This document shows, piece after piece, positions 4,364 through 10,574 of a stretch of DNA of 36,198 bases. The stretch's first letter is position 1, and every line of letters starts with the position of its first letter. Source of the stretch: a virus (Duplodnaviria; Heunggongvirae; Uroviricota; Caudoviricetes); IMG/VR virus record IMGVR_UViG_2529292906_000018, one strand, 5' to 3'. The position numbers were made by a program, and so were the translations under genes. Below the pieces are notes generated by a model. It was not told the DNA's origin. It searched no databases and saw only the letters and a list, made by a program, of their open reading frames with translations.

Positions 4364-4825
4364 ATGACGGCAGAGTACATCAGGGACTGGCAACAACCGC
4401 GCCACGCAGTGGGGCGTGAAGGAACGGGGATCCCCGCTCCTGAATCCGCGCTTTCCTCCTGGCTGGATGCCTACCGGGCAGAGAACGAGCACCGCCAGGA
4501 AATGGCTGATGCGGCGTTCTCCGCCACGCCGCTGGGCAACCTGATTAATAAAAGCCTGGACGCACAGGAAAAACAGGACAAAACCATCACACTGGCAGGA
4601 GACGCCAGAAAACAGGCACGCGGCGCGGTGGATGAAGCCATGGCCTCGCTGCGCCTGCTGCCGTCCTATCTGCGCGATCCGCTTATTCGCCACCTCTCCT
4701 TCCTGCGCAAAAAACAGGAAGCCGATCGTCAGAAAGGAAAAACGCCAGGCAGGCAGAACGCTATGCGCGTGGGACCCTGCGCAAAATATTCGAACGTCTG
4801 GAGCGCACCGATCACCGCTGGCTGA
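4364..4825 (+). CDS. A: probable N-terminal segment of replication protein A, separated from the main ORF by a -1 frame change
   Basis: Frame of the 4870 ORF is open and protein-like back to a stop at 4633-4635 with no ATG/GTG/TTG; upstream ORF 4364..4825 lies in the other frame; homopolymers A6 (4709-4714) and A5 (4738-4742) sit in the switch zone. Confidence 0.45.
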   Translation: MTAEYIRDWQQPRHAVGREGTGIPAPESALSSWLDAYRAENEHRQEMADAAFSATPLGNLINKSLDAQEKQDKTITLAGDARKQARGAVDEAMASLRLLPSYLRDPLIRHLSFLRKKQEADRQKGKTPGRQNAMRVGPCAKYSNVWSAPITAG

Positions 4826-4869
4826 CACCGGGTTATCGCTCCCTTGCCGGACGCGAACGCCTGGACGAT

Positions 4870-7185
4870 TTGCTTTACCTGCCGCAGCTCAACAAACACC
4901 AGATAAAGACGCTGGCAACCATGACGGCGGCGATGTTCAGCAGCACCTTCGAAAAACTCTGCGATGGCTTTGGCGCGACCGATGGCGAGCTGACCATGGA
5001 TGTAACCCTGAAGGCGTATCAGATGCTGGCCCGCATGGCGTTACACCTGCACGCCATGCCTCCACATTATGACGCACTGACAACAGACAAAGACCGGAGG
5101 AACGAACCGGACACGGAGCTGCTGCCGGGCGCAATCCTTCGCCTGACCTGTGCGGAATGGTGGAAACGCAAACTGTGGCTGTTACGTTGCGAGTGGAGAG
5201 AAGAACAACTCCGCGCCGCCTGTCTGGTTTCCAGAAAAACATCGCCCTATCTGAGCCAGGACGCGTTAAGCGAGTTTCGCGCACAGCGCGAGAAAACACG
5301 CGATTTCCTGAAAAGTTTCATGCTGGAAAACGAAGACGGGTTCACGATTGATCTCGAGACAGTGTATTACGCGGGAGTAAGTAACCCGGTTCACCGTAAG
5401 GCAGAAATGATGGCCACCATGAAGGGACTGGAACTTCTGGCCGAAGCCCGTGGCGACAGAGCGGTGTTTCTGACTGTCACCTGCCCGTCAAAATACCACG
5501 CAACAACGGAGAACGGTCATCCGAACCCCAAATGGAACGGGGCCACCATGCGCGACTCCAGCGATTACCTGGTTAACACGTTTTTTGCGGCGGTCCGCAA
5601 AAAACTGAACCGCGACGGCCTGCGCTGGTATGGCATCCGCACGGTGGAGCCTCACCATGACGGCACCGTGCACTGGCATATGATGGTCTTTGCTCATCCG
5701 GAAGAAATCGACAGCATCGTGACCATCACCCGCGATATTGCCATTCAGGAAGACCGCCACGAGCTGGGCAATGATATTACTCCGCGCTTTAAGGTGGAGT
5801 ACGTTGACGGCACCAAAGGCACGCCAACCAGCTACATCGCCACCTACATCGGAAAAAACCTGGACAGCCGCGCCGTGGATGGCATCGACCCGAAAACGGG
5901 CAAACCACGCGTTGACCACGAAACCGGAAAATCAATGGCCGAGAGCGTGGAGCGCGCCATCGGTTGGGCACGCCTTCACCGGGTCCGCCAGTTCCAGTTC
6001 TTTGGCATCCCCTCCCGTCAGGTGTGGCGTGAACTCCGCCGCCTTGCCAGCCAGATGGCACGCAACCCGGAAGGCCCGCAACGGCTGAAGGATGACGCAA
6101 TGGATGCGGTACTCGCTGCCGCTGATGCCGGATGTTTTGCCACCTACATAGAGAAACAGGGCGGCGTACTTGTTCCACGCAAAGACTACCTGATTCGCAC
6201 CGCCTACGACCTCGCCGATGAGCTGAACGATTACGGCGAACAGAGTGTACAGATTTACGGGATCTGGTCACCACTCATCGGGGAATCCTCCCGTGTGTGC
6301 ACGCACCCGGATAACTGGAAGCTGGTAAGACGTAAACCGGAACAGGAAGGCAGCGCCCACGAAAATGGTTTTGACCTTCAGGGCGGCCCTGCCGCCCCTT
6401 GGACTCGTGGCAATAACTGTCCCCGTGTACAGGAAACGGACAACAACGGGACAGAACAGCCGGAAGAACGGCCAGCACCGTGGCCGCAGCTCCCTGACAG
6501 CGTTGAAGTGAACGAATGGATGCGCTCACTAAAACGGCACGAACGCCGGGCGCTGATGCGTTCGCTTCGTGACAAACAGGCAAAAAACAGCAGTGATGAA
6601 ATGCAGAGCTGGACACAGAGCCGCAAACAGCAGCGGCCTTTGCCTGATAACCACGAATTACTCGCTAAAGAATGGCGGGAGTCTGCTGAATCTCTCGGCC
6701 TGCATATCGGTGAACAGCAGATGCAGCACCTGTTACGGGGCGGCAGTCTGTACGTTGACGGCAGCATCATTGCACCGCAGGGATTTGAAATTGTACGCAA
6801 ACCGGATACCCGCCCGGACAGCCGAATCACGCAGCTCTGGCAGCGCCTGAGCCGTAACCACGGCGTAAGCAGTACGGAGATCCGCCATAACCCGGTCGCC
6901 AGCTATCTGGAACAGCTGGGGACATTAGACCCCGAAGCCGCCGCACGCCTGGCATCCACACTTCAGCAAGACCAGAACACCATGAAAACACCCGTTACCG
7001 TGCTTTCTGACATGCTGCGCGCCATCCGCGACGCAGAGCACGCACAGAGAATCAGTGAAACCACTGAACGCGCCCGCCGCAAAGCAGACCTGCTGCGGGG
7101 TGGCCTGACCAGTGGAAACAAAAAACAGACAGAAACGGGATTCACAAATCCCGTAAATGAGCAAAAAACGCGCCGCGATATATGA
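4870..7185 (+). CDS. A: replication initiation endonuclease (P2 gpA family, rolling-circle initiator), main ORF
   Basis: 771 aa ORF with VEPHHDGTVHWHMMVF and YIATYIGKNLD motifs typical of gpA; listed TTG start at 4870 is probably not the true start (see N-terminal segment). Confidence 0.85.
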   Translation: MLYLPQLNKHQIKTLATMTAAMFSSTFEKLCDGFGATDGELTMDVTLKAYQMLARMALHLHAMPPHYDALTTDKDRRNEPDTELLPGAILRLTCAEWWKRKLWLLRCEWREEQLRAACLVSRKTSPYLSQDALSEFRAQREKTRDFLKSFMLENEDGFTIDLETVYYAGVSNPVHRKAEMMATMKGLELLAEARGDRAVFLTVTCPSKYHATTENGHPNPKWNGATMRDSSDYLVNTFFAAVRKKLNRDGLRWYGIRTVEPHHDGTVHWHMMVFAHPEEIDSIVTITRDIAIQEDRHELGNDITPRFKVEYVDGTKGTPTSYIATYIGKNLDSRAVDGIDPKTGKPRVDHETGKSMAESVERAIGWARLHRVRQFQFFGIPSRQVWRELRRLASQMARNPEGPQRLKDDAMDAVLAAADAGCFATYIEKQGGVLVPRKDYLIRTAYDLADELNDYGEQSVQIYGIWSPLIGESSRVCTHPDNWKLVRRKPEQEGSAHENGFDLQGGPAAPWTRGNNCPRVQETDNNGTEQPEERPAPWPQLPDSVEVNEWMRSLKRHERRALMRSLRDKQAKNSSDEMQSWTQSRKQQRPLPDNHELLAKEWRESAESLGLHIGEQQMQHLLRGGSLYVDGSIIAPQGFEIVRKPDTRPDSRITQLWQRLSRNHGVSSTEIRHNPVASYLEQLGTLDPEAAARLASTLQQDQNTMKTPVTVLSDMLRAIRDAEHAQRISETTERARRKADLLRGGLTSGNKKQTETGFTNPVNEQKTRRDI

Positions 7186-7230
7186 AGCGCGCATAAAACA
7201 GGCAAAAACGGGATTTCAGAATCCCGTAAA
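7134..7230. promoter_or_regulatory. pair of 20-bp palindromes at the A/parM junction (candidate parC-like centromere/operator)
   Basis: ACGGGATT-CACA-AATCCCGT at 7137-7156 and ACGGGATT-TCAG-AATCCCGT at 7209-7228, 72 bp apart, directly upstream of parM. Confidence 0.4.
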
Positions 7231-7261
7231 CGATTAATTAATCAACATAAGGAAAAGCGAC

Positions 7262-8221
7262 ATGAAAATTTGTATCGACGACGGCTCCACCAACATCAAG
7301 CTGGCATGGACTGAGAACGGCGAACGCCGCAACGCCATCAGCCCGAACAGCTTCAAGTCGGAATGGTCTGCGCCGTTCGGTGGCACGCAGCCCGCGAACT
7401 ACATGCTTGATGGCGTGCGCTATGGTTTTGATCCGGTCAGCGATCGCTTTGTCCAGACGACCGACACGCAATACCAGTACAGCGATGTGAATGTCATTGC
7501 CATTCATCACGCGCTGGTCAAATCAGGCATCACACCACAGGAGGTGGATGTGGTTGTCACCCTGCCACTGAGCGAGTATTTCGACACAAACGCACAGCCG
7601 GACATGGCCAACATCAACCGCAAAAAAGCGAACGTTATGCGCCCGGTGGAGTACCAGAACGGCGAGGCATTCACTATCCGTAACGTGCGGGTTATGCCTG
7701 AATCCATTCCGGCTGGCTTTAAGGCACTGGCTGACATGAGTCCGTTTGAATCCCTGCTGATTGTGGATTTGGGCGGAACCACGCTGGATGTGGCAAAGGT
7801 TCAGGGGCAACTGGCAGGTATCAGCCAGGTGTTTTGCGATCCACACGTAGGCGTTTCTCTGATGGCCGATGCCGTACTGTCAGTGATGGCCACTAACGGT
7901 ATGCGCACCAGTCACCACATCGCCAATACCATTATCGAACATCGCCATGATGAAGCCTGGCTGCGCCAGCACATCCACAATGACGCGCATTACGCCAGCC
8001 TGATGGCGGTTATTCGTGAAAAGGAAGAAACACTGAAACAACGCGTGATCCGCGCGCTGGCGGTTTTTTCGGGTTACGGGCGGGTGATGGTTGTCGGTGG
8101 AGGGGCGGAGATTGTGGCACCCGCTATCCGCGAAGCCTGCGGAGTTAATGCGACTTTCATCGCGGACGGGGTGCCACAGTTTGCTCTGGTTAATGGGCTG
8201 TACGCAATGGACAAGGAGTAA
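7262..8221 (+). CDS. parM: actin-like plasmid segregation ATPase ParM/StbA
   Basis: N-terminus MKICIDDGSTNIKLAW and YSDVNVIAIHHAL closely resemble R1 ParM (MLVFIDDGSTNIKLQW...YSDVNVVAVHHAL) as recalled; RBS AAGGA upstream. Confidence 0.85.
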   Translation: MKICIDDGSTNIKLAWTENGERRNAISPNSFKSEWSAPFGGTQPANYMLDGVRYGFDPVSDRFVQTTDTQYQYSDVNVIAIHHALVKSGITPQEVDVVVTLPLSEYFDTNAQPDMANINRKKANVMRPVEYQNGEAFTIRNVRVMPESIPAGFKALADMSPFESLLIVDLGGTTLDVAKVQGQLAGISQVFCDPHVGVSLMADAVLSVMATNGMRTSHHIANTIIEHRHDEAWLRQHIHNDAHYASLMAVIREKEETLKQRVIRALAVFSGYGRVMVVGGGAEIVAPAIREACGVNATFIADGVPQFALVNGLYAMDKE

Positions 8222-8225
8222 ACCA

Positions 8226-8537
8226 ATGACGACACCAACCAGACGGATAAGTTTCTATCTGAAGCCTGCGGCCGTCAAGAACGAAAGCGAAGCATGCGCC
8301 TGGCTGGACAGCCTTACACCAGAAGCCCGCAAAAGCGGCCAACGCGTGGCTTTTCTGGCCGGGCTGGCACTTCTGAAAATGAATCCAGCAGAGGCTTACC
8401 GACTGGCTGCATGGGCTGACGATGAGGCGTTATCAGTGACACAAACCAGGACAGAATGCCCCGCGTCACAGCCAGTATCAACCGCACAGATAACCAGTCA
8501 GATGGCCGGAAATATCCGGGCGTTATTTCCCGAATAA
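8226..8537 (+). CDS. parR: ParR-like centromere-binding adaptor protein
   Basis: ATG 8226 with AAGGAG 7 nt upstream; RRISFYLKPAAV...AFLAGLALLKMNP resembles R1 ParR (RRTIAFKLNPDV...ALTAGLALYRQDP) as recalled; immediately downstream of parM. Confidence 0.7.
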   Translation: MTTPTRRISFYLKPAAVKNESEACAWLDSLTPEARKSGQRVAFLAGLALLKMNPAEAYRLAAWADDEALSVTQTRTECPASQPVSTAQITSQMAGNIRALFPE

Positions 8538-8543
8538 CACAAC

Positions 8544-8576
8544 ATCAGGGCGCATCCGCCCTGATGACTTTAATCC
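8544..8576 (+). terminator. weak putative terminator after parR
   Basis: Hairpin ATCAGGGCG-catc-CGCCCTGAT at 8544-8565 followed by gacTTTaaTcc. Confidence 0.3.
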
Positions 8577-8635
8577 GGGAACATAAACAAGGGGGACACA
8601 ATGCAACACATTGACAGAGAAAAAGGAAAAAAAGC

Positions 8636-9043
8636 ATGAACAGAAAACAGAAACAAGAGTTGAAATACTTCTTACGTAAAGAAATTGCCAGGCTTGAAGA
8701 TGCAGAGTCACAATCATCAGAAATTCCGTTCGGAATGGATATCAACGACGCCCGTATGCTTCAGGCATACCGTATAGCTCAGGCTGCACTACAGACAAAA
8801 CCGTTAAATAACATACATGAAAAGTATGATTATTTTACGGATACCGCTTGCTTGCTGACATCTGAAGAACAAAAGATAGCCCAACTTTTAGGCGACGCAT
8901 GGAACCTGTATTTAACATTGCCAGTTGAGCATCCAATGGGTAGAGATGAATTTTGCCGGGCAATTCATCATTGCCAAAATATGGTGTTGGCACGCCCGGC
9001 CATCAGGGCGTTGGCCAGGAAGGGGCAAGGCTATAAAAGATAA
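8636..9043 (+). CDS. hypothetical protein (135 aa), accessory gene in the slot where P2 carries tin/old
   Basis: ATG 8636 with AAAGGA upstream; AT-richer than phage core; followed by a strong terminator; no recognisable motif. Confidence 0.5.
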   Translation: MNRKQKQELKYFLRKEIARLEDAESQSSEIPFGMDINDARMLQAYRIAQAALQTKPLNNIHEKYDYFTDTACLLTSEEQKIAQLLGDAWNLYLTLPVEHPMGRDEFCRAIHHCQNMVLARPAIRALARKGQGYKR

Positions 9044-9046
9044 GTA

Positions 9047-9075
9047 AAACGCCCTCCTCCAGGGCGTTTATTTCA
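9047..9075 (+). terminator. rho-independent terminator
   Basis: AAACGCCCT-cctcc-AGGGCGTTT hairpin followed by ATTTC. Confidence 0.6.
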
Positions 9076-9076
9076 A

Positions 9077-9104
9077 TGCACAATAGTGCACAAATTTGCA
9101 CAAT
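9077..9104. repeat. three direct TGCACAA repeats at about 10-bp phasing (putative protein-binding site in cos-proximal region)
   Basis: tgcacaat (9077-9084), tgcacaaat (9087-9095), tgcacaat (9097-9104). Confidence 0.4.
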
Positions 9105-9173
9105 TTTTTTGAACGACTTTTTACCCTTCCGGCCCGCATGGCGGCTGGATCCGTCAAGGATCCGTGCGTGCAC

Positions 9174-9190
9174 AAAAAAACGCGTTTTTT
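9174..9190. repeat. near-perfect palindrome A7-CGCG-T6
   Basis: aaaaaaacgcgtttttt at 9174-9190. Confidence 0.4.
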
Positions 9191-9476
9191 CTGCGCGCAG
9201 GTGACGGGGGAACAGCCCGCGTTTCAGGGGGTAAATAGCATCCCCTGAACGATGTCGCAGCAACACAACAGAATGGCTGTATTTCTCACGCTGAGCGTGA
9301 AAAAAACGTGAGGGCTTTTGATTTGATGGGGTGAAAGGTAAGGCCGTCAAAATCGCACTGAGGCGGCGAGAACATGCAGTTAACGCGGTGGGATTGCGTA
9401 AGAATCTGACCGTCGATGATGGCAATAAGCAGGAAAGCGTCGTGAAATTATCTGACTGATACAGGAGCTGGAGAGT

Positions 9477-9502
9477 CGGGGCATAAATTTTTTATGCCCC
9501 GG
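9477..9502. other. strong palindrome/hairpin just 3' of portal gene (possible terminator or cos-associated element)
   Basis: CGGGGCATAAA-tttt-TTATGCCCCGG, stem of about 10 bp. Confidence 0.35.
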
Positions 9503-9527
9503 CGAAGCAGCAGACAAGCGAAGCGCG

Positions 9528-10574
9528 TCAGGATGTGGGCTGGGTGTCCAGCAGTGCATAAGGGTTAAAGCGGATCACCTCTTCGCCAAGCCAGTCATTG
9601 ATGTGCTTCATGGCCTCCATGACGGGCATCAGCTCGTTAATTGCGTAAACCCGCGCGGCCTTCTCCACATCACCAAACGCACTTTTTTCACCCGGCATCG
9701 CCCCCATCAGTTGCGGCGGGACACGGTGCGCAGCCAGCACATCATCACGGGATGCCGCCTTAACATTCATGAACTCATCCTTTGCGGTGATCTGCTGGAA
9801 CGGCAAAATTTGCCCCCCCTCTTTGCCCCCGTTGGGCGCATGAATGAGCACGTTTTTAAACGCACCACCACCACGTGCACCCTGTAACGTTTCTTTCAGG
9901 GAGTCCATGCTTTCGCGGTTTACCTGCGCTGCACCGATGTAGATGATGCACCCGGCGTGGGATCCGTTGTCGTAATACAGTTTTCTGAACATGTCCGCCG
10001 AATGAGACAGGCTGGCCGAGAGTAATGCGCCGAGATATTCCGGCATGCCGTAGATTTCCTGGTTAATATCCGGATTCATCAGGTGACACACTTTGCCGGG
10101 GCGAAACTGGAACGCGTCCTTGCCATCCTGCACATACCACCATGATTCAAGATCGCTTCCGCGTCGCATGTATTTCGCCAGGGCGTGCCGTAATTTAAGC
10201 GGTTCGCCGAGCATATTGCTCCGAAGCTCAAGGAATGCGTTACCGAACACAAACCAGTCCAGCGCCAGCGCCGAGAAATCCTGCCGGGAAAGCAGCGGGT
10301 GCGGGATGTAGCAACCGAGTAATACATTGCGCTTAAAGTAAAGCGCAGACTGATGCCAGGACGTTTGCCGGGCAGCTCTTGCCAGACCGTACCAGTCCAC
10401 CGGGGTTTCATACCACCGCCCGTTATCAGCACAGTACATATTATCCAGCAGGTCATGCCCGGTCAGGCGATAAGGCCCATCAAATGTGAATGCACTGAGC
10501 GACGATTCATTCCTGAGCGCATCAGCGAGATCAATGCGTGAACTCATGCGCACTTTTTTATTTTTTCTGCTCAT
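9528..10574 (-). CDS. Q: portal protein (P2 gpQ-like)
   Basis: 348 aa ORF at the P2 Q position beside P, leftward; GGAG SD; start overlaps P stop. Confidence 0.85.
   Translation of the reverse strand: MSRKNKKVRMSSRIDLADALRNESSLSAFTFDGPYRLTGHDLLDNMYCADNGRWYETPVDWYGLARAARQTSWHQSALYFKRNVLLGCYIPHPLLSRQDFSALALDWFVFGNAFLELRSNMLGEPLKLRHALAKYMRRGSDLESWWYVQDGKDAFQFRPGKVCHLMNPDINQEIYGMPEYLGALLSASLSHSADMFRKLYYDNGSHAGCIIYIGAAQVNRESMDSLKETLQGARGGGAFKNVLIHAPNGGKEGGQILPFQQITAKDEFMNVKAASRDDVLAAHRVPPQLMGAMPGEKSAFGDVEKAARVYAINELMPVMEAMKHINDWLGEEVIRFNPYALLDTQPTS

What the first reader, a model, noticed from the sequence alone, without database searches (positions are those of the whole stretch)
7137..7228. Two near-identical 20-bp palindromes spanning the end of gene A and the parM leader
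ACGGGATT-CACA-AATCCCGT (7137-7156, inside the last codons of A) and ACGGGATT-TCAG-AATCCCGT (7209-7228, in the parM 5' region) are 72 bp apart. Paired symmetric sites of this kind are typical dimeric DNA-binding protein targets; candidates are a ParR centromere/operator or a remnant of the module's insertion junction.
Basis: seen in the sequence. Interest (0 to 1): 0.4.

Follow-up and report, generated by a model that had tools for sequence, protein, structure and literature searches.

The report
Likely ParR binding sites before parM
The two matching 20-bp palindromes upstream of parM are most likely the docking sites (a small, unusual "centromere") for the ParR protein of a plasmid-type DNA-segregation cassette carried by a very common P2-like E. 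coli prophage. It is a plausible but untested variant of a well-known system.

Summary
Each sits inside a longer 42-nt direct repeat.

The window is a P88-like (P2-family) prophage. The sites lie at the left edge of a parM-parR cassette inserted after replication gene A.

Evidence that they belong to the cassette and are ParR sites:
- Relatives with the same gene A but other cargo lack them.
- Relatives with a different A tail, or with an extra ORF before parM, keep them.
- Diverged cassettes (ParM 62% identical; Hafnia, Plesiomonas) keep two GGG-N10-CCC dyads 72-73 bp apart at the same distance from parM, although hairpin potential is lost.
- In about 40 compared loci, the dyads occur only where ParR has the N-terminal strand TRR(I/V)SFYL.
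- Plasmid relatives carry iteron clusters at the equivalent place, one class also offset by 73 bp.

The best reading is therefore a split, palindromic parC-type ParR binding site (confidence about 0.65). The insertion-scar and terminator readings are disfavoured.

Unlike plasmid parC, no strong promoter lies between the sites. Binding and function are untested.

The parts
7135..7154 (.). Site 1: perfect 8-4-8 palindrome ACGGGATT-CACA-AATCCCGT (core GGG-N10-CCC at 7137-7152). It lies inside the last codons of gene A.
   Evidence: The core is conserved in Hafnia and Plesiomonas relatives.
7208..7227 (.). Site 2: perfect 8-4-8 palindrome ACGGGATT-TCAG-AATCCCGT (core at 7210-7225), 34 nt upstream of the parM ATG.
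   Evidence: The core is conserved in relatives. The loop is the most polymorphic segment in the population.
7119..7160 (+). Copy 1 of a 42-nt direct repeat that contains site 1. It marks the left edge of the parMR cassette.
   Evidence: family D1. Homology to a locus with a different gene A tail (L066) begins at about 7112-7124. Loci with the same A but other cargo diverge after about 7075-7085.
7192..7233 (+). Copy 2 of the 42-nt direct repeat, containing site 2; 81% identical to copy 1.
   Evidence: Recombination between the two copies deleted 73 bp at least twice independently (L001, L038).
7155..7207 (+). 53-bp A-rich spacer. It holds the gene A stop codon (7183-7185) and a short GC-rich inverted repeat (CGCGC 7169-7173 / GCGCG 7188-7192). 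Its sequence is poorly conserved but its length is conserved.
   Evidence: No sigma-70-like promoter scores above 2.6 bits.
7233..7245 (+). ATTAATTAATCAA: an AT-rich box conserved in all four lineages between site 2 and the ribosome-binding site. It may be a weak -10 element or a leader element.
   Evidence: Alignment (invariant ATTAAT-AA). Promoter scoring is weak.
7262..8221 (+). parM, an actin-like segregation ATPase (319 aa). Its Shine-Dalgarno sequence AAGGA is at 7249-7253.
   Evidence: Pfam StbA_N 1.8e-82 and ParM_N 6.3e-69. R1 ParM structures match at 8e-93.
8226..8537 (+). parR, a ribbon-helix-helix centromere-binding adaptor (103 aa). The N-terminal strand is TRRISFYLKP and the C-terminal tail is NIRALFPE.
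   Evidence: Pfam Plasmid_stab_B 1.7e-24. A family profile matches pB171 ParR (PDB 2JD3) at 1e-14. Alignments.
4364..7185 (+). Replication gene A (P2 GPA family). Its non-conserved C-terminal tail reads through site 1. In this window the gene is split by a 1-nt deletion near 4737.
9047..9069 (+). First good plus-strand intrinsic terminator downstream of A-parM-parR-orf135. It is the likely end of the transcription unit.

Best explanation
The two palindromes are the ParR-binding sites of a type II (ParMRC) partition cassette carried by a P88-like, P2-family prophage. They form a split, minimal parC.

Inferred mechanism:
- Each 20-bp palindrome offers two inverted 8-bp half-sites (core GGG ... 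CCC) for a pair of ribbon-helix-helix ParR dimers.
- The two sites are 73 bp apart, which is seven helical turns, so they face the same side of the DNA.
- The bound ParR could assemble into one wrapped or looped complex. Its C-terminal tails (NIRALFPE) would capture ParM filament ends.
- Site 2 overlaps the only weak promoter-like elements before parM, so ParR bound there could also dampen expression.

Shown here: the sites belong to the parMR cassette. Their core, spacing and position are conserved across diverged cassettes. They co-occur with one ParR strand type.

Inferred only: ParR binding, its stoichiometry, and centromere or operator activity.
For: 1. Cassette identity. parM and parR are clear R1/pB171-type homologues.

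2. Co-inheritance. Relatives with the same gene A but other cargo lack the palindromes, and A simply ends earlier (L002-L004). A locus with a different A tail keeps both (L066). A Hafnia cassette separated from A by a 167-aa ORF keeps both dyads at the same distance from parM (L230). Of 120 IMG/VR loci with the exact palindrome, 115 are this same parM-upstream context and 5 are unrelated single hits.

3. Phylogenetic footprint. In cassettes with ParM 94% and 62% identical (Hafnia L224, Hafnia L230, Plesiomonas L232), the invariant islands upstream of parM are two GGG-N10-CCC dyads and an ATTAAT box. The dyads start at -125/-52, -124/-51, -128/-55 and -131/-59 from the ATG, so their spacing is 73, 73, 73 and 72 bp. 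The sequence between them has diverged.

4. Co-variation. Dyads occur in every lineage whose ParR strand is TRR(I/V)SFYL. They occur in none of about 30 loci with other strands (NRKISFYL, RRKITFYL, RRKIQFYI, NRKCSFYI, SRRCSFEL, RRTIAFKL and others), which carry other repeats.

5. Architecture. Plasmid relatives have iteron clusters at the equivalent place. The cluster offset is 73 bp in the RRKITFYL class and 94 bp in R1-type, which is 7 and 9 helical turns. The split-parC layout is described in PMC5016525, as is the ability of ribbon-helix-helix partition proteins to bind direct and inverted repeats alike.

6. Constraint pattern. Between the two copies the arms are 16/16 identical and the loops 0/4.
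Against: - No binding or function data exist, and I found no paper on this cassette.
- There are only four half-sites, against ten iterons in R1. They are inverted rather than direct.
- No strong promoter lies between the sites, unlike plasmid relatives that score 10-12 bits.
- Population constraint is not obviously above background. Among 82 distinct haplotypes only 37 (site 1) and 28 (site 2) are perfect palindromes, and 18 carry CCT instead of CCC in site 2.
- The co-variation rests on about three independent diverged lineages.
- The element is nearly always integrated in the chromosome, where a plasmid centromere has no obvious job.
Confidence: 0.65

Rival explanations
1. The palindromes act as nucleic-acid hairpins rather than protein sites. 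They could be minus-strand intrinsic terminators that shield gene A from antisense transcription. Alternatively they could be stem-loops in the A-parM mRNA that set processing, stability or translational coupling.
For: Each folds into an 8-bp hairpin of about -10 to -11 kcal/mol on either strand (z = -2.5 to -4.8). On the minus strand both are followed by T-rich tracts and are picked up by the terminator scan. Arms are conserved while loops vary.
Against: - There is no T-run after the hairpins on the plus strand.
- No minus-strand gene converges on them, because parM, parR and orf135 are all on the plus strand.
- In Plesiomonas and Hafnia L230 the inner arm bases are not complementary. Only a 3-4 bp GGG/CCC stem with a 10-nt loop remains, and 5 of the 8 folds tested are no more stable than shuffled sequence (z between -0.15 and -1.75; the other three reach about -2.6). 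The triplets, spacing and position are nevertheless kept.
- Natural E. coli variants carry uncompensated arm changes, with no consistent strand on which they would be wobble-compatible.
- There is no Rfam match.
Confidence: 0.1
2. The repeat is a neutral by-product with no present function. It could be a local 73-bp duplication or a recombination or insertion scar at the A/parMR junction.
For: Copy 1 sits exactly at the left boundary of the cassette. The repeat extends beyond the palindrome into asymmetric flanks, giving 42 nt at 81% identity. The copies recombine and delete the 73 bp between them (L001, L038). Population diversity in the arms is not lower than in the flanks.
Against: - A scar of insertion would flank the insert, yet both copies are upstream of parM.
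- The differences are not spread as a neutral duplication predicts (arms 0/16, loops 4/4).
- Equivalent dyad pairs with the same spacing and position exist in cassettes 62% identical in ParM with unrelated flanks and different left neighbours. A recent accident cannot explain this.
Confidence: 0.08
3. The palindromes are binding sites for a dimeric protein other than ParR, such as a phage regulator (C, Cox, Ogr-type activator, the gene A protein) or a host factor.
For: Perfect dyad symmetry with a 4-bp centre is generic for dimeric regulators. No direct evidence here names ParR.
Against: - The only genes that always accompany the dyads are parM and parR.
- Gene A alleles without parMR lack the sites.
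- Cargo downstream of parR varies between loci.
- The motif occurs nowhere else in the 36-kb prophage window.
- Dyad presence tracks the ParR strand type.
Confidence: 0.1

Closest known systems
parC of plasmid R1 (type II ParMRC partition locus; Dam & Gerdes 1994, as summarised in PMC5016525)
   Same: It lies directly upstream of a parM-parR operon whose proteins are homologous (ParM 46-49% identical; ParR in the same Pfam family). It is split into two repeat blocks whose offset is a whole number of helical turns. The repeat core contains a C/G triplet next to A-tracts (R1-type iteron AAACCCA; here AATCCCGTAAA).
   Different: R1 has ten direct 11-bp iterons (5 + 5) flanking a strong promoter. 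Here there are four half-sites arranged as two inverted pairs with a 73-bp offset. No strong promoter lies between them. ParR is only about 25% identical. The host replicon is an integrating phage, not a plasmid.
pB171 ParR/parC (PDB 2JD3) and pSK41 ParR-centromere complex
   Same: The ParR family profile matches 2JD3 at E = 1e-14 across the ribbon-helix-helix domain. In these systems ParR dimers pair up and DNA wraps around a ParR super-helix (PMC5016525). From memory, not checked here, the pSK41 repeat unit is 20 bp, the same length as each palindrome.
   Different: Those centromeres are arrays of tandem direct repeats. Here only two isolated 20-bp units are separated by 53 bp of non-conserved DNA.
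Ribbon-helix-helix partition/repressor proteins that read inverted repeats (omega of pSM19035, ParG of TP228; Arc/Mnt-type operators)
   Same: These proteins bind short repeats in direct or inverted orientation through a pseudo-symmetric beta-ribbon (PMC5016525). An 8-4-8 palindrome of about 20 bp matches the footprint of two adjacent dimers (my own knowledge of Arc/Mnt operators).
   Different: They belong to different families (type Ib partition or phage repressors). They recognise different motifs, and no homology to ParR beyond the fold is claimed.
parMR of plasmid-prophage D6 and other plasmid ParMRC loci (IncL/M, IncF, IncI classes)
   Same: They have the same gene pair and the same upstream location of the repeats. 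One class (ParR strand RRKITFYL) has clusters offset by exactly 73 bp.
   Different: They use direct 10-11-bp iterons of unrelated sequence and have strong internal promoters. They reside on autonomously replicating elements.

Membership tests
Type II (ParMRC) centromere parC | Lies in cis, immediately upstream of a parM-parR operon | tested here: met
   The sites lie at -127 and -54 from the parM ATG, and parR follows parM.
Type II (ParMRC) centromere parC | Partner proteins are an actin-like ParM and a ribbon-helix-helix ParR | tested here: met
   Pfam StbA_N/ParM_N and Plasmid_stab_B. R1 ParM structures match at 8e-93. The ParR family profile matches 2JD3 at 1e-14. The AlphaFold monomer model has the expected helices but low confidence, mean pLDDT 60.
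Type II (ParMRC) centromere parC | Array of repeated short motifs (iterons), continuous or split in two blocks | tested here: inconclusive
   Two blocks are present and are conserved in position and spacing. Each block is one inverted pair, not a tandem array of direct iterons. No further degenerate copies were found.
Type II (ParMRC) centromere parC | par promoter embedded between or within the repeats and repressed by ParR | tested here: not met
   No sigma-70 consensus match was found. The best PWM score is 2.6 bits, against 10-12 bits in plasmid relatives. Only weak candidates overlap site 2. This feature applies to R1-type split parC rather than to all parC.
Type II (ParMRC) centromere parC | Specific binding by the cognate ParR | not testable with these tools
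   Only indirect support exists. The dyads co-occur with the ParR strand TRR(I/V)SFYL and are absent with all other strand types.
Type II (ParMRC) centromere parC | Confers stabilisation in cis and incompatibility in trans | not testable with these tools
   This needs plasmid-loss and incompatibility assays.
Intrinsic (Rho-independent) terminator | Stable GC-rich hairpin followed by a U-run at the end of a transcription unit, with the hairpin conserved | tested here: not met
   There is no T-run on the plus strand. The minus strand matches the pattern, but no minus-strand gene lies upstream. Hairpin potential is not conserved in L230 or L232.
Insertion-junction or target-site duplication scar | Repeat copies flank the inserted module and are tied to a particular junction | tested here: not met
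   Both copies are on the parM-proximal side. They are retained with a different A tail (L066) and with an intervening ORF (L230).
Dispersed repeat (REP-like) element | Many copies scattered in intergenic regions | tested here: not met
   The window holds only these two copies. Of 120 IMG/VR loci with the exact motif, 115 are this same locus type.

The most novel reading that the evidence does not exclude
A quarter of complete E. coli genomes carry an integrating P2-like prophage with a complete ParMRC machine. Its centromere is reduced to two palindromic ParR sites, and it has lost the autonomous promoter of plasmid versions. It would therefore be expressed with replication gene A from the phage early operon.

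The most novel reading is that this actin-like system does not maintain a plasmid. It would instead act on phage DNA during infection or induction. It could space or position replicating phage circles, or carry an unintegrated genome through cell divisions in a carrier state. Alternatively it could act on the chromosomal locus that holds parC.
Probability: 0.2. Interest if true: 0.6.

Novelty: new variant of a known kind. Interest (0 to 1): 0.35.

Why it matters
If ParR binds these sites, the P88-like phages offer a naturally minimal type II centromere: four half-sites in inverted pairs, seven helical turns apart. That would be useful for asking how few ParR dimers suffice to cap a ParM filament.

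It would also pinpoint the cis element needed to test why an integrating phage, found in about 25% of complete E. coli genomes, keeps an intact plasmid-segregation machine.

In practical terms, the two repeats are a recombination-prone spot. Deletions of 73 bp between them change the end of gene A. A parC on the chromosome could also exert incompatibility against plasmids that use the same ParR type.

Tried and rejected
- Rfam scan of 6500-9700 at a permissive threshold found no family at the sites.
- Sigma-70 consensus and PWM scans found no credible plus-strand promoter, so the operator claim could not be supported.
- DNA searches with the gene A tail and the intergenic region against phages and plasmids returned only near-identical P88-like elements.
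- The genome-contig scan with ParM gave only 3 near-identical loci.
- Viral-contig scans with the Hafnia and Plesiomonas ParMs gave 0 and 1 loci.
- Population diversity analysis of about 100 haplotypes was under-powered, because everything is at least 95% identical. It did not show arms more conserved than flanks.
- A compensatory-change test for a hairpin gave mixed, uninformative results.
- phmmer of ParR alone against the PDB found nothing. A family profile was needed.
- The AlphaFold monomer of ParR had low confidence (pLDDT 60), so no fold search was run.
- tblastn of ParR against plasmids found only P88-like elements, so no independent plasmid-borne lineage of this ParR type was available.
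- A gene A-related role (ori, or a terminator of A) was rejected, because A alleles without parMR lack the sites.
Full report
**Observation**

The two palindromes exist. ACGGGATT-CACA-AATCCCGT is at 7135-7154 and ACGGGATT-TCAG-AATCCCGT is at 7208-7227.

No further copy with up to three mismatches occurs in the 36-kb window. In 200 first-order Markov simulations of the window, no two perfect palindromes with 8-bp arms ever shared the same arm.

A 42-nt direct repeat, 7119-7160 and 7192-7233, is 81% identical. All 16 arm positions are identical, all four loop positions differ, and four of 22 flank positions differ. The flanks are asymmetric (AAA on both sides on the plus strand), so the unit is a direct repeat that contains a palindrome.

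**Context**

The window is a P88-like (Xuanwuvirus) member of the P2 family.
- Gene A (Phage_GPA, 5e-131) ends at 7185.
- parM is at 7262-8221 (StbA_N/ParM_N; R1 ParM structures match at 8e-93).
- parR is at 8226-8537 (Plasmid_stab_B). A ParR family profile matches the pB171 ParR structure 2JD3 at 1e-14.
- A 135-aa ORF follows, then a terminator at 9047-9069, the cos region, and the portal gene on the minus strand.

The same A-parM junction is present in 1369 of 5426 complete E. coli genomes, almost always on the chromosome.

**Do the sites belong to gene A or to the cassette?**

- Prophages with the same gene A but other cargo lose similarity after about 7075-7085. Their A ends some 30 codons earlier, and they have no palindromes (L002-L004).
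- One IMG/VR locus with a different A tail joins the window sequence at about 7112-7124 and keeps both sites (L066).
- In a Hafnia relative, gene A stops inside the loop of site 1, so the right arm is non-coding there (L224).
- In a more distant Hafnia cassette, a 167-aa ORF separates A from parM, yet the dyads stay at the same distance from parM (L230).
- Of 120 IMG/VR loci with an exact match to the palindrome pattern, 115 are this same parM-upstream context. Five are unrelated single hits, roughly the number I would expect by chance, though that was not computed.

The sites therefore belong to the parMR cassette, with copy 1 at its left edge.

**Comparative footprint**

parMR cassettes with ParM 94% (Hafnia L224) and 62% identical (Hafnia L230, Plesiomonas L232) occupy the same slot between A and the portal gene in P2-like prophages. 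Aligned over about 150 bp upstream of parM, the invariant islands are two GGG...CCC dyads and an ATTAAT-AA box before the ribosome-binding site. The rest has diverged.

| Locus | Dyad 1 | Dyad 2 | Positions from ATG | Spacing |
|---|---|---|---|---|
| Window | GGGATTCACAAATCCC | GGGATTTCAGAATCCC | -125 / -52 | 73 |
| Hafnia L224 | GGGATTCATGAATCCC | GGGATTTGAAAATCCC | -124 / -51 | 73 |
| Hafnia L230 | GGGATTGAGGAAACCC | GGGTTCATTAAATCCC | -128 / -55 | 73 |
| Plesiomonas L232 | GGGACAACAAAAACCC | GGGACAACACTAACCC | -131 / -59 | 72 |

In L232 and L230 the inner arm bases no longer pair, and five of the eight folds tested (four segments, both strands) are no better than shuffled sequence; the other three reach z of about -2.6. 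What is conserved is a pair of G/C triplets 13 bp apart centre to centre, repeated after seven helical turns. That is a duplex-DNA protein site rather than a hairpin.

**Link to ParR**

Within the E. coli clade the ParR N-terminal strand TRRISFYLKP is invariant, although the C-terminal half of the protein is hypervariable. L230 has TRRVSFYLKP and L232 has TRRISFYLNP.

I compared about 40 parMR loci from plasmids, phages and metagenomes. Two GGG-N10-CCC dyads within 220 bp upstream of parM were present in every locus with a TRR(I/V)SFYL strand. They were absent from every locus with another strand (NRKISFYL, RRKITFYL, RRKIQFYI, NRKCSFYI, SRRCSFEL, RRTIAFKL, LRKCSFYI, KKVMIYL).

Those other loci carry their own repeats at the equivalent place.
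- R1-type has direct 11-bp AAACCCA iterons in two clusters.
- The RRKITFYL class has TAGTTCTCAAA iterons in two clusters offset by exactly 73 bp.
- The NRKISFYL class has a long inverted repeat.

Cluster offsets of 73 and 94 bp equal 7 and 9 turns of about 10.4 bp. The review PMC5016525 describes type II parC as tandem repeats upstream of the operon, continuous or split around the promoter. It also notes that ribbon-helix-helix partition proteins bind direct and inverted repeats equivalently.

**Mechanism proposed (inferred)**

Each palindrome would bind two ParR dimers, one per 8-bp half-site. The two sites lie on the same face of the helix and would be drawn into one ParR-DNA complex, with the 53-bp A-rich spacer wrapped or looped. 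The conserved ParR C-terminal tail would present to ParM filament ends.

**What does not fit the plasmid paradigm**

- Plasmid relatives have strong sigma-70 promoters between their iteron clusters (10-12 bits in my PWM). The phage-borne cassettes do not (window best 2.6 bits). Only weak candidates overlap site 2.
- No plus-strand terminator separates A from parM. The cassette is therefore probably co-transcribed with gene A from the early operon, which would tie expression to lytic or early development. This is inference.
- Constraint in the E. coli population is weak. Among 82 distinct haplotypes retrieved through ParM or ParR, 37 have a perfect site 1 and 28 a perfect site 2. In 18, site 2 has CCT instead of CCC. 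Arm diversity is not lower than in the flanks, although all sequences are at least 95% identical, so power is low.
- The two copies recombine. Two independent 73-bp deletions leave a single hybrid palindrome and a shortened gene A (L001, L038).

**Rivals**

- Hairpin or terminator. The minus-strand pattern matches and the hairpins are stable. But no convergent gene exists, there is no plus-strand U-run, the hairpin is not conserved in distant relatives, and Rfam has no match.
- Neutral duplication or junction scar. This is contradicted by conservation across 62%-identical cassettes with different neighbours, and by the split between arm and loop differences.
- Another protein. This cannot be excluded, but parM and parR are the only genes that always accompany the sites, and ParR is the DNA-binding member of the pair.

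**Novelty**

I found no publication on the parC of P88-like phages. The ParR clade appears only in P2-like elements in PLSDB.

I rate the finding a new variant of a known kind: a palindromic, four-half-site, promoter-poor parC on an integrating phage. Confidence in the ParR-site reading is about 0.65. The open question of what ParMRC does for an integrating phage is the more interesting part.

Noticed in passing
window 4364-7185 (indel near 4737/4738): Gene A is split into ORFs 4364-4825 and 4870-7185 by a 1-nt deletion relative to the intact 940-aa alleles in L011, L020 and L227. This is either a frameshifted, inactive replication gene or a sequencing error.
   Followed up: partly
window 8226-8537 (parR), residues about 50-95: The C-terminal half of ParR is hypervariable among prophages (overall identity 52-97%). 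ParM stays 98-100% identical, and ParR residues 1-48 and the last 8 (NIRALFPE) are nearly invariant. The cargo genes downstream of parR also differ between loci, so a recombination boundary seems to run through parR.
   Followed up: partly
L315 (NZ_CP148288.1, 1-34461): A complete P88-like genome, with integrase, Cox, A, parM and parR, is deposited as a circular 34.5-kb 'plasmid' of an E. coli isolate. Only 2 of 1531 matching places in complete E. coli genomes are on plasmids. It could be an episomal or induced form, which bears on what parMRC is for.
   Followed up: partly
L001 1626-1700; L038 about 2438: Two independent 73-bp deletions between the two repeat copies leave one hybrid palindrome (loop CACA in L001, loop TAAA in L038) and a shortened gene A. 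L001 also has an internal parM-parR deletion and an A frameshift, so it looks like a decaying prophage.
   Followed up: yes
window 7233-7245: An ATTAAT-AA box between site 2 and the Shine-Dalgarno sequence is invariant in E. coli, both Hafnia lineages and Plesiomonas. Its role is unknown; it could be a weak -10 element, a leader element, or a further protein contact.
   Followed up: partly
window 8543-8566: A perfect 10-bp-arm hairpin (CATCAGGGCG-CATC-CGCCCTGATG) starts 6 nt after the parR stop codon. It is terminator-like only on the minus strand.
   Followed up: no
L233 3300-3500; L234 1300-1500: Serratia-type phage-borne cassettes (ParR strand NRKISFYL) keep the left flank CAGGCAAAAACGGGA. 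The rest is rearranged into a 14-19-bp long-range inverted repeat (GGGAACGAWAYAGAAAAAT) and, in L233, direct repeats ATTTCATGACC. This looks like centromere turnover alongside a change in the ParR strand.
   Followed up: partly
window 7141, 7208, 7225 and equivalents in L011-L314: The same half-site change (ACGGGATT to ACAGGATT, or its complement AATCCTGT) recurs in different arms in different loci. In L066 it occurs in both left arms at once, which suggests gene conversion between the repeat copies.
   Followed up: partly
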